From: Octopus vulgaris | Taxonomy: Eukaryota | Assembly: GCA_951406725.2 (NCBI GenBank) | Contig: OX597822.1 | Location: 84,444,001 to 84,508,000, forward strand | Direction: 5' to 3' | Length of the DNA stretch: 64,000 bases | Shown: positions 58,332 through 63,846 of the stretch, piece after piece | Position numbering within the stretch: position 1 is the first letter of the stretch | How the letters are laid out: every line of letters begins with the position of its first letter | The notes under the pieces: model-generated | What the model saw: only the letters and a program-made list of their open reading frames with translations | Databases searched by the model: none | Told to the model about the DNA's origin: nothing | Translations under genes and position numbers: made by a program

Positions 58332-58871
58332 GTGTGTGTGTGTCTGTTTGTTCCCCTAGCATTGCTTGACAACCGATGCTGGTGTGTTTACATCGCCGTC
58401 ACTTAGCGGTTCGGCAAAAGAGACCGATAGAATAAGTACTAGGCTTACAAAGAATAAGTCCTGGGGTCGATGCTCCAGCATGGCCGCAGTCAAATGACTG
58501 AAACAAGTAAAAGAGAGAGAGTATAAAGTTTTCCTTTCATAAGTCCCAAGTTCCTCTTGTGGTTTAAAAGAATTGGGAATATGTATTATATATGATGCAT
58601 GGACATCACAAGAAATACACAGGACAGGCAAAGGGGTTAAAACAGTCGCCAGATCTCCCTCATATTACACAAACATCTTTAAATAAATACTGGGGTCAAT
58701 CTATTCAATTAAAAATTCTTCAATGTGGTGCCCCAGCATGACCACAGTCTAATGACTAAAACAAGTGAAAAAACATAAGATATTTGTAAGATTTTGTTTA
58801 TATTTTGTGTATCTGGTCTGAATGTTCAGTTTGAGTTGCCCTTATTTAAATCTATTCTTTTTTCTTTCCAG

Positions 58872-58940
58872 TTAAAAATGTGGATTTCTTTTCTCATTCC
58901 TAAAATTGAAGATGGTAACAACTTTGGTGTGTCCATTCAG
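58872..58940 (+). CDS. PSME3: PSME3 coding exon 6 (activation loop)
   Basis: Acceptor tttccag, donor gtacag, 69 nt. LKMWISFLIPKIEDGNNFGVSIQ is the PA28 activation loop signature. Confidence 0.97.
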
Positions 58941-59039
58941 GTACAGTCACTCACTCTAATGTATGTGTATGGAGAGAGAGCGAGAGAGACACACACAAAA
59001 AAAATGTATACACTTCTTGAGATGTATGATGGTCTCCAG

Positions 59040-59088
<49 letters not shown>

Positions 59089-59089
<1 letters not shown>

Positions 59090-59255
59090 TTTATTTAAAG
59101 CAGCAGAAAATTCAACAAAATCTGTTACTCTGAGTTTCTCGTTGCCGTTCATCAGACAGTCTGAATTTTCTGCTGCTTTAAATAAAGCATATTACTCTAC
59201 CACTGGTATTTGAGTACTCTTTTTTTCCACCTTGTTTCACATTTATGTTTACTCC

Positions 59256-59257
<2 letters not shown>
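59089..59257 (-). mobile_element. Small foldback element with perfect 26-bp inverted repeat around a hammerhead, inserted in (TA)n
   Basis: ctttatttaaagcagcagaaaattca (59089-59114) is the exact reverse complement of 59162-59187; (TA)n on both flanks. Confidence 0.75.
59122..59159 (-). ncRNA. Minimal type I hammerhead ribozyme motif
   Basis: Minus strand reads CUGU-CUGAUGA-ACG GCAA CGA-GAAA-CUC A GAG-UA|ACAG. Full core, GUA triplet, 4-bp helix I, near-palindromic helix III; the helix II closing pair is an A-A mismatch. Confidence 0.75.
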
Positions 59258-59309
<52 letters not shown>

Positions 59310-59791
59310 CGTACATACATATAATGCTTTGGCCATGGCTAAGAATTGTTTTGACTCTTATTTCTAGCAATGCTGGTGCTGACTTGCATCTTAGTCACTT
59401 TAGTGATGATTGTACTTGTGCCTTTTGGTTTTAAATTGCAACTAGCCACTGTAATTATGTATATGTATACACACACACACACACACACACATGTAAGGAG
59501 AGAAAGAGATAATGTAGATGTTTCTATGTATAAAAACAAACAAAAAGTCCATTAACTGAGTGAGGAACTTAATTGGTGAAACACAGCTAAATATTTATAA
59601 AAATGTGTCAGTTTTGCTTTTTAAACTGTTGTGAAAATATCTAAAAGATTGTTGTATATAAACAGATTAGGGATTAAGTTCTAAAGGAACTTCTTTTAGT
59701 GGTGGATATGTGGAACGGTGTAAGGTCAATTCATCGGTGGCTATTTGATCCCAGTCACTTTGTCAAGATTACTGGAAAAATGGAAGAACGA

Positions 59792-60543
59792 ATCATCATC
59801 ATCATCGTTTAACGGCTGCTTTCCATGCTTGCATGGGTTGTACGATTGATTGAGGGCTGGCGAACCAGATGGCTGCACCAGGCTTCAATCTTGATCTGGC
59901 AGAGTTTCTACAGCTGAGTGCCCTTCCTAACGCCAACCACTTTGAGAGTGTAGTGGGTGCTTTTATGTGCCAGTCAGGCAGTACTGGCAACGACCTCGCT
60001 CGAATCTTTTACACATGCCACCGGCACAGGTGCCAGTAAGGCAATGCTGGTAACGCTCGAATGGTGTCTTTTACATGCCACTGGCACGGAGGCCAGATAG
60101 CCGCTCTGGCAAATGATTACACTCGGATGGTGCTCTTAATACCCTTCTAGCATGGGGCTCAATTGCCAGTAAGGTGTCGCTGGTAACGATCACGCTCGCT
60201 CGAATGGTGCCTTTTAAGTGTCACTGGCATGGAAGCTGGTTAACCACTCTGTCAATGATCACACTCGTATGGTGCTCTTTGCACCCTGCTAGCATGGACG
60301 CCAGTCATCGAATTTGATTTTGATTTTGATTTCACTTGCCTCAACAGGTCTTCGCAAGCAGAGTTTTAGTGTCCAAAGAAGGAAAGGTATGCATAAGTGG
60401 GCTGGTTATGCCACTGGCATAGGCCACGAGATTATGGTCTCATTTGGCTTGCTGGGTCTTCTCATGCACGGCATATTTCCAAAAGTCTCGGTCACTAGTC
60501 ATTTCCTTGGTGAGGCCTAGAGTTCGAAGGTCGTGCTTCACCA
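59792..60543 (-). mobile_element. 5'-truncated RTE-clade LINE 3' end nested in the MULE
   Basis: Same 3' UTR and (GAT)n tail as 57060-57650, with a few terminal codons (VKHDLRTLGLT). Confidence 0.85.
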
Positions 60544-60601
60544 AAAAAAAAAAAAAAAGCCATTTATTTTAGGGTTTGCTTTATTAGATATCTATTTCTT
60601 C

Positions 60602-61958
60602 TTAAAATTTAAGATTGTGTGCAATTGCTTTTAGAAAAATAATTTTCTGGCTTGGATCATGTTTTTCCATGACATTTTTTATATGCAAGTTCATATCTCT
60701 GTATTTTTTCTTTTCGTTTGGTTCTTCTCCTTGCATAAACTTCTGCAATTTGGTACTGGCAAACCTTTCCTCACATTTAATTACAACAGTTAGTTTCCAA
60801 ATATTTGGATGACTCATATTCACTGTGTTTTTCAGCACACTGTTGTAGGCTTCTAAACTATTTGTAGTACGAGCAATCCCCATCATACATCGATCCCAAA
60901 CATTCCATATAGATAATGGAAATGGAGGTTCAAGGCATTGCTTCCTCTGTCCACTTGCTCTAGGTGGTCCTATAGAATTATTTTCAAAATAGGATACAAC
61001 TGACTGTGGAATATCATCATCATCTACAAGTTGTTCATATCCATCTACAACATCATCAACTGGCAGGAAGGCAAGGGCAACAAAACACTGTATTTTAAGA
61101 CTAAAACTGTCATCTTCATGATATCTGCATTTTAGTCCTTCTTGCACAACATGCTTGTACACATTTTGTCCTAAATGAAACAAGCAGCATGCCAAATTTG
61201 ACCCAGGAAACAATTCCAGAAATCCATTATGGGCTGCTTTTTCAAAATCCATAATTATCAGGTCCCTCATCTGCAGTAATATATTTATTTTGGCAAAAAG
61301 TCTACTATATGTGTCTTGACTTTTGTCAGAGACCAATGCAAACAATCGTGTGGCATTAAAATGATCAATTTGAATGTGAAGTATATATAACTGAAAAATT
61401 ATACTAGAGCAGCACTTAAATGTTCCATCTTCCACCCAGTTCTTGTACTGTTTTAACTGTCAAAGTGCTTCGTCACTTGCAAATATTAGTATTCGGTTTG
61501 AATCTTCCATCCCGCTGTCATACTTTAAAAACGTTTTATCATTGTCAATGTAGGAGTATTCACTTGGAATGGAAAAGCCCAGCTTGCCTCCGTCTAATAT
61601 TCCTATTAAGCTGTGCAAACGGAGGTATTTGCAGCAATGTACAGTCGTTTAAATTCTGAACTTCACTAGCAATAACTGAGCGAGGAGCATCATGAGATGA
61701 AATAGACCTTACTTTAATATTTGAAATCTATTATCCTTGCATTTACCTCTCCAGCAGTTAAAGCGTGATTATGGATCCCAATCTTAAGCTCTTTATTATT
61801 TTCATCTGTTTGAAATTTCGCTTAGCACACATAATTTTCGCACCTCCAGTGTATCTTCAATCCATCTGCATTCTGCTTATTTTTTGTGTATATTAATTTT
61901 CTTGATCGACCACTTTGATTTTGCCTTTCTCTAAAGTTATGATCTTGCAGGTAGTCAT
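60602..61958 (-). pseudogene. FLYWCH-MULE transposase, disrupted in the N-terminal half
   Basis: ORF 60602..61435 has EDGTFK, IIMDFEKA, CLFH and RTTNSLEAYN (DDE plus CxxH). Upstream broken frames give YTKNKQNADGLKIHWRCENYVC*...GIHNH (FLYWCH finger) with stops and frameshifts. Confidence 0.88.
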
Positions 61959-62404
61959 GGTGATGGGTTGGCATATTGAATAAATTTAATTCAATTTGCT
62001 TGAAAATCTTTGTAAACTGTTCAGAGCAGACACTTAAGAGAGAGGTTAAAAAAGGAAAAATAATATCTAAAACTGTCTAATGACAATTTTAATTCTAAAG
62101 TGATTGTTCTAAACTTGCCCTTGAAAATCACATTTAAAAGTATTTTAGGACAAATTGGCCAGTGATGAATTGATCTGGGGATGAATTGATTGGGAACAAA
62201 TTAACCGATGATGAAATAACCAGGGACGAATTTTCCTAGCACTATGTGGAACTAAGAAGGGATAATTTTAAGGTTTTTAAATATGAACGAATCTTTATAA
62301 ATTTGTGAAATTTCAAAATTTTTCAGGTGAAAATTTAGCTTTTTCTTTGAAAGAGAGATCTATAAAATTTGCATATGAATAAATATTATAATTTGAAATA
62401 ATAT

Positions 62405-62608
62405 ACATTATTTACATTTGACGGATATTTGTCCTCATCTTCATCAGGTGTCTTGGGGAAATTTCGAACCTAGGTTTTCATTCCTAAGGTATTTTTCAAT
62501 GTTGTTATCATTATTATTCAGAGGTTACTGCCTGGAATCGAACTTGGAATCTTGGGGTTAGTAGCCTGTGCTCTTAACCACTACGCCATATGCCCACGGG
62601 CATATGGC
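62405..62608 (-). mobile_element. Copy of the 23.7-24.1 kb family with deleted ribozyme centre and retained palindromic centre
   Basis: Same sequence on the minus strand; the helix II/GAAA segment is deleted at cctcatcttcatcagg; ends in gccatatgccc-ac-gggcatatggc (62585-62608). Confidence 0.85.
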
Positions 62609-63723
62609 ATTAAAATAATTTATGTAAAATAATGTATTTTGTAGGATTACATCAAATCAATGTGTTAACTACTAATAGCTACTAAGAAATTTTGTGTAGA
62701 AACAAAACCGTAGTTTAATCAAAATACAGTTAAAAAATTCATCAAATTAAAAGAATGTTTGTGAAAATCAATACAATTGAAAATAAGCAAGATTATAAAT
62801 AATTATAAAGTAACATTAGTGCAGATAAGGGGAAATACAAAAATGCCCCTTCATAATTTGCTAATGTCTACAAGGGAGATTACAAAGCATCTCTATCTAT
62901 AATAAGATTATCTTTTGTTTTTTTACCATAAATTTATCTTAGGAATCATTAAGAAGAATTCTTATGTTTGGGCAGTGAAGGTACTTGGCTTAGTGATTTG
63001 GGGTATTTGGCCTACGACTGTTAGGTTGTGAGTTCGATTCCTGATGGTGCCTTGTGCTCTTAAGCAAGGCAGTTCATTTCTTGTTGCTCCAGTCAGCCCA
63101 TCTGGCAACAGTGAGTAGTATTTCAAAGGGCCAGCCTTGTCACGTTCAGTGTGAAGCTGAATAACACTGAGAACTAGGTTAAGAGCATGTGTGTCTGTGG
63201 AGTGCTCAGCCACTTGCATGTTAATATCATGAACAGGCTGTTCCTTTGCTGGGATCAACTGGAACCCTCATCATTGTAACCAACAGAACGCCAGAGTGGT
63301 TGGCACCTCATTTGCTTTGTCTTTGATAGAAAACAAATCAACTGTAATTGAGCAAACCTATAACCAAAGACAGTCAATCCATGACCATCCCATCTCTGTT
63401 TAAGGGTAGTGTATCTAGATTATATAATCTTGGATATGCCCCTTCCATTTTTAAAATGGTGGGATATTTCTCACAGGTGACCAAACAGTTCTTTATGGTT
63501 CTGAAATGCTTTTATGTTAAGGAGTCTGGTAACACTGAAATGAAACATGATGGAGGGTGGGGAAGGCTTTGACTTTGAAGAAATGAATGAAGTCTACTAC
63601 ATCTATTGGGTAATTTTTCTTTATAAATTCATTTTCACACACACACACATTTCATTTCCCGTGGTCTAATTTATTTCTGTCGAGAGTTACGAAATAATTA
63701 ATTCTTGTTTAAAACACTTTCAG

Positions 63724-63846
63724 GAAGATACTTTGGCTGAGGCGAGACAAGTTGAAACAGAATCTGCTTCTTACCTGGAAATGATTTCACGCTATTTTGT
63801 AACTCGAGCGAAATTGGTGTCAAAAGTTGCTAAGTATCCTCACATA
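63724..63846 (+). CDS. PSME3: PSME3 coding exon 7 (gene continues beyond window)
   Basis: Acceptor ctttcag, donor gtaagt, 123 nt. EDTLAEARQVETESASYLEMISRYFVTRAKLVSKVAKYPHI retains the TRAK lysine equivalent to human K188, typical of gamma. Confidence 0.96.

What the first reader, a model, noticed from the sequence alone, without database searches (positions are those of the whole stretch)
59089..59257. Near-canonical hammerhead whose helix I is extended by a perfect 26-bp inverted repeat, antisense in a PSME3 intron
Seen on the minus strand: ctttatttaaagcagcagaaaattca-ga-CUGU-CUGAUGA-ACG(GCAA)CGA-GAAA-CUCAGAG-UA|ACAG-attttgt-tgaattttctgctgctttaaataaag. It has a GUA triplet (cut between 59126 and 59125), a GNRA-capped helix II and a 1-nt-loop helix III, which implies dimeric activity. 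Perfect arms suggest a young insertion. It sits in (TA)n about 150 nt downstream of the activation-loop exon; the sense pre-mRNA would form the 26-bp hairpin but not the ribozyme.
Basis: partly seen in the sequence, partly recalled or inferred. Interest (0 to 1): 0.72.

Follow-up and report, generated by a model that had tools for sequence, protein, structure and literature searches.

The report
Tiny inverted Penelope retrotransposon insertion
This 169-base piece is an ordinary stump of an abundant Penelope-like jumping gene, made of two short copies of the element's hammerhead-bearing end joined back to back in a TA repeat, so the perfect hairpin is likely a by-product of insertion and the ribozyme, which lies antisense to the host gene, is predicted to be silent here.

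Summary
In detail: hammerhead core, GUA cut site, 26-bp arms and the PSME3 intron are all as described. The interpretation changes. The 169 bp are two 5'-truncated copies of the terminal repeat (pLTR) of a Penelope-like retrotransposon, joined in inverted orientation in (TA)n. One is a 72-nt arm holding the hammerhead; the other is a 96-nt arm with a 70-nt tail. The parent is a 3.36-kb unit with a 711-aa ORF that carries the published Hydra-clade motifs. The genome holds 8,876 exact arm ends and 3,422 exact copies of this hammerhead. The 26-bp repeat is the overlap of the two arms. It replaces a native extended helix I and is predicted to weaken the ribozyme fold. The same single-hammerhead hairpin occurs at 44 loci with varied junctions. 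The A·A in helix II is the state of the young subfamily, not private decay. Arm 5' ends do not pile up at the cut site (2 of 100) but at the 5' edge of helix I (26 of 100). This pile-up, a 71-nt tail and core-variant turnover are the only unusual points. Verdict: new family of a known kind.

The parts
58872..58940 (+). PA28/PSME3 activation-loop exon (host gene)
   Evidence: Pfam PF02252 E 3.6e-11; best PDB hit PSME3; a contig of run X1 (RNA is only a guess) covers 58871-58941 and no unique intron sequence
59044..59088 (.). (TA)n target, left half
   Evidence: 75 of 92 tail-less arm ends are followed by TATATA
59089..59160 (-). Inverted, tail-less, 5'-truncated pLTR arm (72 nt), from 35 nt upstream of the cut site to the first end point
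   Evidence: Identical in 7 other fetched loci, 1 difference in 28; matches the parent pLTR
59122..59159 (-). Type I hammerhead motif: 4-bp helix I, CUGAUGA, 2-bp helix II with A·A at its base and a GCAA loop, GAAA, palindromic helix III, GUA cut 59126/59125
   Evidence: 3,422 exact copies; same layout as the Hydra-2_aMil HHR in PMC8557442 File S2
59089..59114 (.). Left arm of the perfect 26-bp inverted repeat (outer part of the inverted arm)
59161..59161 (.). Single junction base between the two arms (no microhomology at this locus)
59162..59187 (+). Right arm of the 26-bp repeat: start of the second, tail-bearing pLTR copy, 11 nt downstream of the cut site, so it lacks the hammerhead
59188..59257 (+). 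One-sided 70-nt PLE tail (71 nt in most copies); in full elements it runs on into the ORF leader
   Evidence: 3,822 of 8,876 arm ends continue into it
59258..59305 (.). (TA)n target, right half
63724..63846 (+). Next PSME3 exon (end approximate); the intron is 58941-63723

Best explanation
The element is two short copies of the terminal repeat of a Hydra-type Penelope-like retrotransposon, joined in inverted orientation inside a (TA)n tract, and it likely formed when the element's enzyme cut both DNA strands, primed one cDNA on each from two fixed start points 70 nt apart on its RNA, and the two short cDNAs were joined in the middle. Shown: membership of the family, the two fixed outer ends, one tail per insertion, variable inner ends, and the parent ORF. 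Inferred from PMC11167929 (another clade, in vitro): cutting and extension of both strands and two reverse-transcription start points. Inferred here: joining of the cDNAs, usually at a few shared bases. Where one cDNA stops in the 5' strand of helix I and the other in its 3' strand, the helix's own complementarity supplies those bases, which gives a single hammerhead inside a perfect hairpin, as in this window. The hammerhead belongs to the parent's pLTR, where it would act as a dimer through palindromic helix III. This solo copy is antisense to PSME3 and predicted inactive; the pre-mRNA would carry only a neutral hairpin 148 nt from the donor site.
For: Family. Parent: 3,352-3,365-nt tandem units with open 727-codon frames in L061 and L062; 711 aa from ATG with RWK, DKT, YRDD, CxCX5C, GVVY..YTG, CxxC and CxH, matching PMC8557442 section 11; 1,074 homologues at E <= 1e-20 among 7,999 scored. 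One tail per insertion: 31 of 33 divergent pairs among the first 100 arms of contig C1 by script (1 scored with none, 1 with two); both arms carry the same subfamily base in 33 of 33 pairs (read by eye). 28 of these 33 span <= 207 nt between outer ends; the window spans 99. Window-type hairpins: 44 loci. In the 30 read, junctions vary, all hammerhead subtypes occur, and the tail is on the short arm in 23 and on the hammerhead arm in 7 (6 by script, 1 by eye). 28 of 30 have 2-7 shared bases at the junction under degenerate matching. Folding: parent helix I pairs P 0.96-0.97 (inner pair 0.41) versus 0.12 (0.05) here; the monomer hammerhead fold costs 6.9 kcal/mol here and 5.5 in the parent.
Against: The window's own junction has no microhomology. 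A later deletion inside a longer palindrome would leave the same sequence and is not excluded. Pfam gave no hit for the parent protein and no RT or GIY-YIG hit for any of 30 aligned members; the PDB sequence searches found nothing significant; the fold job did not return, so domain identity rests on motifs and on the published description. No tree with reference PLEs was built. The unit (3.36 kb) and tail (71 nt) are longer than the published norms (<3 kb; 30-40 nt). No activity, strand-specific RNA or population data were obtained.
Confidence: 0.8

Rival explanations
1. Same family, but the insertion began as a longer palindrome (about 158 nt, two hammerheads) and later lost its centre by deletion.
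For: Palindromes of 153-170 nt are the commonest size class among the 33 pairs. Shared bases at junctions fit deletion as well as annealing. The window junction equals that of L002/L099/L106 minus 5 nt.
Against: Window arms are near-identical to other copies, which leaves little time. Arm lengths form a continuum down to 24 nt. New PLE insertions in Chlamydomonas had a median of 128 bp (PMC9977147).
Confidence: 0.2
2. One cDNA folded back on helix I and self-primed the inverted copy (self-priming, as proposed for PLE palindromes in PMC3846280).
For: Helix I is self-complementary. In 7 of 30 window-type loci the tail is on the hammerhead arm, which fits fold-back. Both arms always share subfamily bases.
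Against: In 23 of 30 loci, this one included, the tail is on the arm without the hammerhead, so neither arm contains the other and a simple fold-back of a sense-templated cDNA cannot make it. Self-priming on an antisense template was not tested.
Confidence: 0.08
3. The 169-bp unit is a non-autonomous element in its own right (retrozyme- or MITE-like) that spreads as a hairpin ribozyme.
For: Small, structured, has a terminal-looking repeat, and 44 loci share the layout.
Against: Only 1 of the 44 has this junction; junctions, subtype and tail side vary. It is not in tandem. The inverted repeat reaches only one terminus. An RT-encoding parent explains all parts.
Confidence: 0.04
4. The copy is a co-opted intronic ribozyme or hairpin that regulates PSME3.
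For: It lies 148 nt from a splice donor, and the sense strand forms a stable hairpin (-38.7 kcal/mol).
Against: The ribozyme is antisense, solo and predicted misfolded. It is one of thousands of young copies, in a (TA)n tract that is the family's normal target. No conservation evidence.
Confidence: 0.04

Closest known systems
Hydra-clade Penelope-like elements (Craig et al. 2021, PMC8557442; e.g. Hydra-2_Amil, Penelope-3_HM, Hydra-1_Obim)
   Same: RT plus C-terminal GIY-YIG, RWK, DKT, CxCX5C linker, CxxC/CxH, (TA)n target, pLTR hammerhead. Hydra-2_aMil has the same 4-bp helix I and the same palindromic helix III stem; many listed Hydra HHRs have a non-paired U·U at the base of helix II (File S2).
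   Different: A different family: the Hydra-1_Obim protein and HHR differ by eye. Unit 3.36 kb versus generally <3 kb. Helix II has only 2 Watson-Crick pairs. Thousands of young copies and open ORFs.
Canonical PLE insertion architecture: pLTR, adjacent inverted 5'-truncated copy, one-sided tail (PMC3846280, PMC8557442 Fig. 2 legend, PMC11167929)
   Same: Inverted arms, a tail at one end, two fixed outer end points, AT-rich target.
   Different: Both arms are truncated to under 100 nt, with no ORF; the tail is about 71 nt rather than 30-40 nt.
Minimal/dimeric type I hammerheads of metazoan PLEs (Cervera and De la Peña 2014, PMC4209133)
   Same: Type I topology, palindromic helix III, mostly solo truncated copies, pairs on opposite strands close together, low expected monomer activity.
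   Different: Those have a long helix II (7-8 bp in Schistosoma) and a conserved G10.1-C11.1; here helix II is 2 bp with A·A, and the parent has a long interrupted helix I.
Non-LTR retrozymes (bioRxiv 10.64898/2026.07.22.740005)
   Same: Small, non-coding, type I HHR, PLE-related.
   Different: Defined as tandem repeats with a hammerhead in consecutive units; this is a single inverted insertion.

Membership tests
Hydra-clade PLE (parent element) | Single ORF with RT and C-terminal GIY-YIG endonuclease | tested here: met
   711-aa ORF with FDIIDFYPS 249, YRDD 344, GVVY 580, YTG 598, conserved in a 30-sequence alignment. Met by motif only: no Pfam or PDB hit; one homologue carries precomputed PF01541.
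Hydra-clade PLE (parent element) | RWK motif; DKG modified to DKT | tested here: met
   RWK 37, DKT 113, no DKG
Hydra-clade PLE (parent element) | CxCX5C linker instead of CX2-5CxxC; CxxC and CxH around the conserved E and N | tested here: met
   CxCX5C 562, no CX2-5CxxC, CxxC 667, E 673, CxH 695
Hydra-clade PLE (parent element) | [quoted passage not shown] | not tested
   No alignment to canonical PLE references was made
Hydra-clade PLE (parent element) | Insertion into (TA)n | tested here: met
   TATATA follows 75 of 92 tail-less ends and 64 of 85 located tail ends in fetched loci
Hydra-clade PLE (parent element) | Hammerhead in the pLTR | tested here: met
   The HHR lies in both pLTRs flanking the ORF in L061 and L062
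Hydra-clade PLE (parent element) | Generally shorter than 3 kb (a tendency, not a strict criterion) | tested here: not met
   Unit 3,352-3,365 nt
Hydra-clade PLE (parent element) | RT phylogenetic placement in the clade | not tested
   No tree built; resemblance to the published Hydra-1_Obim and Hydra-1_Ajap proteins seen by eye only
PLE insertion unit | Inverted 5'-truncated copy and a tail at one end only | tested here: met
   31 of 33 pairs by script; 30 of 30 window-type loci, one by eye
Type I hammerhead ribozyme | Core CUGANGA / GAAA / NUH with helices I-III | tested here: met
   0 of 100 resampled windows
Type I hammerhead ribozyme | Paired 10.1-11.1 at the base of helix II | tested here: not met
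   A·A in this copy and in 3,422 exact copies; U·U occurs there in many published Hydra HHRs
Type I hammerhead ribozyme | Covariation supporting the helices | tested here: inconclusive
   69 copies tabulated show subtype changes at core positions 4 and 7, loop 2 and 11.1, but no compensatory pair change; copies are too alike; no formal test was run
Type I hammerhead ribozyme | Self-cleavage | not testable with these tools
   No pile-up of cDNA ends at the cut site; this is neutral to weakly negative
Non-LTR retrozyme | Tandem units each bearing a hammerhead | tested here: not met
   Single copy in the window; short copies in the genome are inverted pairs
MITE | Terminal inverted repeats at both ends and uniform length | tested here: not met
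   The repeat is 70 nt short of one end; spans range from 49 to 3,649 nt. The definition is recalled.
SNORA16 (RF00190) | Rfam gathering score 35 bits | tested here: not met
   28.7 bits

The most novel reading that the evidence does not exclude
In this family the hammerhead's main job in retrotransposition is structural, not catalytic. Its long helix I sets where reverse transcription ends and splints the two cDNAs together, which makes the mirror-image micro-insertions. Cleavage is dispensable, which is why one subfamily spread with a U4C core and the youngest with an unpaired helix II base. Support: exact counts fall from 5,555 to 3,199 to 1,854 as arms are required to reach 40, 46 and 52 nt upstream of the cut, while 2 of 100 arms end at the cut. 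Not excluded: a transcription start there, or the CTAG palindrome and A-run alone.
Probability: 0.2. Interest if true: 0.62.

Novelty: new member of a known kind. Interest (0 to 1): 0.27.

Why it matters
The locus itself matters little: it is one of several thousand stumps. The family is of modest use. It is a young, high-copy Hydra-clade PLE with open ORFs, in a clade described from about two dozen families, and my searches turned up no biochemical study of the clade. Its thousands of insertions record both ends of each cDNA. They fit the two-start, two-strand model shown in vitro for a Poseidon element, with a tail twice as long. They also bear on the open question of what PLE hammerheads do, because cDNA ends map to the 5' edge of helix I and not to the cut site.

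Tried and rejected
Rfam scan: no hammerhead family at E <= 1; the SNORA16 hit (28.7 of 35 bits) and the TA-driven miRNA hits were rejected. Naiad clade was considered first and rejected because the endonuclease is C-terminal. In vivo cleavage signature: 442 arms differ from the parent 8 nt upstream of the cut. In my by-eye tally of the 100 listed, about 12 break exactly at the cut and about 21 one base further, many through palindromic junctions or single-base deletions; 2 of 100 unbiased arms end within 1 nt. Rejected as a peak. A fixed transcript start at -47 for full-length templates: the 3 pLTR copies joined to an element body all begin well upstream of it; small sample, weakly against. 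(greedy junction mapping) was dropped: subfamily SNPs stopped the extension and loose matching over-called tails; searches replaced it. In one search the values at -58, -164, -226 and -557 are method limits, not truncations, and a few of the -47 to -44 calls are inflated by the CTAG palindrome or by subfamily differences. Sequencing runs: no RNA holder listed. Contigs of 4 runs did not show this locus's junction and are cut at (TA)n, so presence/absence stays untested. Pfam and PDB searches of the parent protein were blank. The structure prediction had not finished, so no fold search was run. Earlier-findings look-ups by place and by sequence were empty. Orientation bias in introns was not tested (no annotation available).

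Full report
Observation. A relaxed descriptor finds this one site in the window and none in 100 resampled windows. The 26-bp arms are 59089-59114 and 59162-59187, and the hairpin has z = -7.9. The flanks are (TA)n. The exon 58872-58940 is PA28_C, closest to PSME3. The next exon begins at 63724, and all three PA28_C matches among 10 scored candidates lie at this one locus. Against the reading: Rfam reports no hammerhead at E <= 1, and the minimum-energy fold does not form the hammerhead.

What it is. The 169 bp are a repeat: 90 matches from 40 scored of 266 candidates. Reading the 30 best loci showed palindromes of variable length with a one-sided extension. An exact 27-mer occurs 3,199 times, with 0 for the reversed control. 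Eight long loci picked for paired matches showed the parent: tandem units of 3,352-3,365 nt with open 727-codon frames in L061 and L062, and partial or broken frames in the others. The order in the parent is hammerhead, AATAAAG, 71-nt tail, leader, ATG. The 711-aa protein has 1,074 homologues at E <= 1e-20 among 7,999 scored. It has RWK, DKT, YRDD, CxCX5C, GVVY..YTG, CxxC and CxH, the features given for the Hydra clade in PMC8557442 section 11. That paper's File S2 lists Hydra hammerheads with the same layout (Hydra-2_aMil) and many with a non-paired base at the foot of helix II. Pfam and PDB searches were blank and the fold job had not returned, so the domain calls rest on motifs.

Anatomy of this copy. 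59089-59160 is an inverted, tail-less arm, identical in 7 other fetched loci. 59162-59257 is a second arm that starts 11 nt past the cut site and carries the 70-nt tail. The two arms share 26 nt, and that overlap is the inverted repeat. Genome-wide there are 8,876 exact arm ends, 3,822 of them continuing into the tail. Among the first 100 arms on contig C1, 33 divergent pairs were found: 31 with one tail, 1 scored with none (one search shows a variant tail there) and 1 with two. 28 of the 33 span 207 nt or less. Both arms carry the same subfamily base in 33 of 33 (by eye). The single-hammerhead hairpin layout occurs at 44 loci; I read 30 of them. Junctions vary, all hammerhead subtypes occur, and the tail is on the short arm in 23 and on the hammerhead arm in 7. 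Under degenerate matching, which inflates the overlaps, 28 of 30 share 2-7 bases at the junction; the window copy shares none. The layout is therefore made repeatedly and is not one amplified unit.

The ribozyme. The parent has a native interrupted helix I (4 + 7 + 4 bp; core pairs P 0.96-0.97, inner pair 0.41). In the window RNA these pairs fall to 0.12 and 0.05, and the hammerhead fold costs 6.9 kcal/mol, against 5.5 in the parent. Helix III is a palindrome: duplex -7.4, hairpin +2.1 kcal/mol. This fits the dimer model of PMC4209133, which found no cleavage by a single minimal motif and low cleavage by dimers. The window haplotype has 3,422 exact copies. Copies with another base at 11.1 mostly have C at core position 4 (2,034 versus 126). 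PMC3088659 says U4C considerably lowers activity in vitro yet permits viroid infectivity. The window's subgroup is young but not the youngest (3.2% pairwise, n = 6, versus 0.5%, n = 11; small, biased samples).

Mechanism. PMC11167929 showed in vitro that a Poseidon PLE protein cuts and extends both strands of AT-rich DNA, starts at two adjacent RNA sites that delimit the tail, and inserts normally when the hammerhead is mutated. I infer the same here: one cDNA from each start point, both short, joined centrally. Because neither arm contains the other in 23 of 30 window-type loci, simple fold-back is unlikely for them. A later deletion in a longer palindrome cannot be excluded. At this locus the hammerhead is solo, antisense to PSME3 and predicted misfolded, so it is probably silent. 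A contig of run X1 (RNA is a guess) covers the exon and no unique intron sequence.

Where the cDNAs end. There is no peak at the cut: 2 of 100 arms end within 1 nt, and the listing shows none by eye. 26 of 100 end 44-47 nt upstream, at the 5' edge of the extended helix I (somewhat inflated, see Tried and rejected). Nested exact counts fall 5,555 to 3,199 to 1,854 at -40, -46 and -52. The fall from 8,876 to 5,555 over the preceding 53 nt is not strictly nested, and exact counts mix mutation with truncation. Earlier scan notes report the same edge effect in other genomes; they prompted this test and are not independent support. A transcript start, a reverse-transcriptase stop, annealing through helix I and the CTAG palindrome all remain possible. 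The 3 pLTRs joined to an element body start further upstream.

Known and novel. Each architectural feature is published: inverted truncated copy and one-sided tail (PMC3846280, PMC8557442), pLTR hammerheads including close opposite-strand pairs (PMC4209133), and (TA)n targeting by Hydra elements. The family itself was not found. Two 11-12-nt motifs gave 0 hits in the PMC8557442 supplement text, whose long runs are cut in display, and Hydra-1_Obim differs. Searches turned up no description of this family or of 5' ends clustering at helix I, judged from listings. Repbase, Dfam and subscription journals could not be searched. What I saw: PMC4209133 parts 1-2 of 4; PMC11167929 parts 1-2 of 4 and passages; PMC8557442 abstract, passages, sections 11 and 15, supplement part 2 of 59 and two supplement searches; bioRxiv 10.64898/2026.07.22.740005 part 1 of 5 and passages (supplements closed; its species tables could bear on novelty); PMC3088659, PMC3846280 and PMC9977147 passages only. 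The host taxon was not established; a cephalopod is my guess from recall.

Verdict. Observation confirmed, interpretation partly supported. It is a micro-insertion of a new Hydra-type PLE family: a new member of a known kind, interest 0.27. The most novel open reading, a structural role for helix I in ending and joining the cDNAs, has probability 0.2 and interest 0.62 if true.

Noticed in passing
G000-wide; Arm 5' ends pile up 40-52 nt upstream of the cut site, on the 5' strand of the extended helix I; a palindrome of about 158 nt centred on CTAG recurs in several subfamilies.
   Followed up: partly
G000-wide; Subfamilies trade core features: U4 with A·A (3,422), C4 with another base at 11.1 (2,034), U4 with another base (126). 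The youngest group (0.5% pairwise, n = 11) has U4 with A·A; the other groups are at 2-3% (n = 6-20).
   Followed up: partly
L061:998-8593 (G000:C1 about 64,214,500-64,222,100): A roughly 7.6-kb near-perfect inverted array of two 3.36-kb units, 99.8% identical, one with an open 711-aa ORF: a very recent insertion.
   Followed up: partly
window 58400-58520 and 58690-58770: Two related SINE-like repeat fragments in the upstream intron; similar sequence flanks L014 and L027. Recalled as a cephalopod-type SINE, untested.
   Followed up: no
window 59960-60420: Cluster of diverged 36-59-nt direct repeats with spacings near 63-66 and 133-143 nt, following a (CAT)n-headed repeat near 59790.
   Followed up: no
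window 59336-59445: A separate high-copy short repeat right of the (TA)n tract (high contig depth).
   Followed up: no
window 59198-59220 region of the tail: The tail folds into a small hairpin on both strands, between the two inferred start points of reverse transcription.
   Followed up: no
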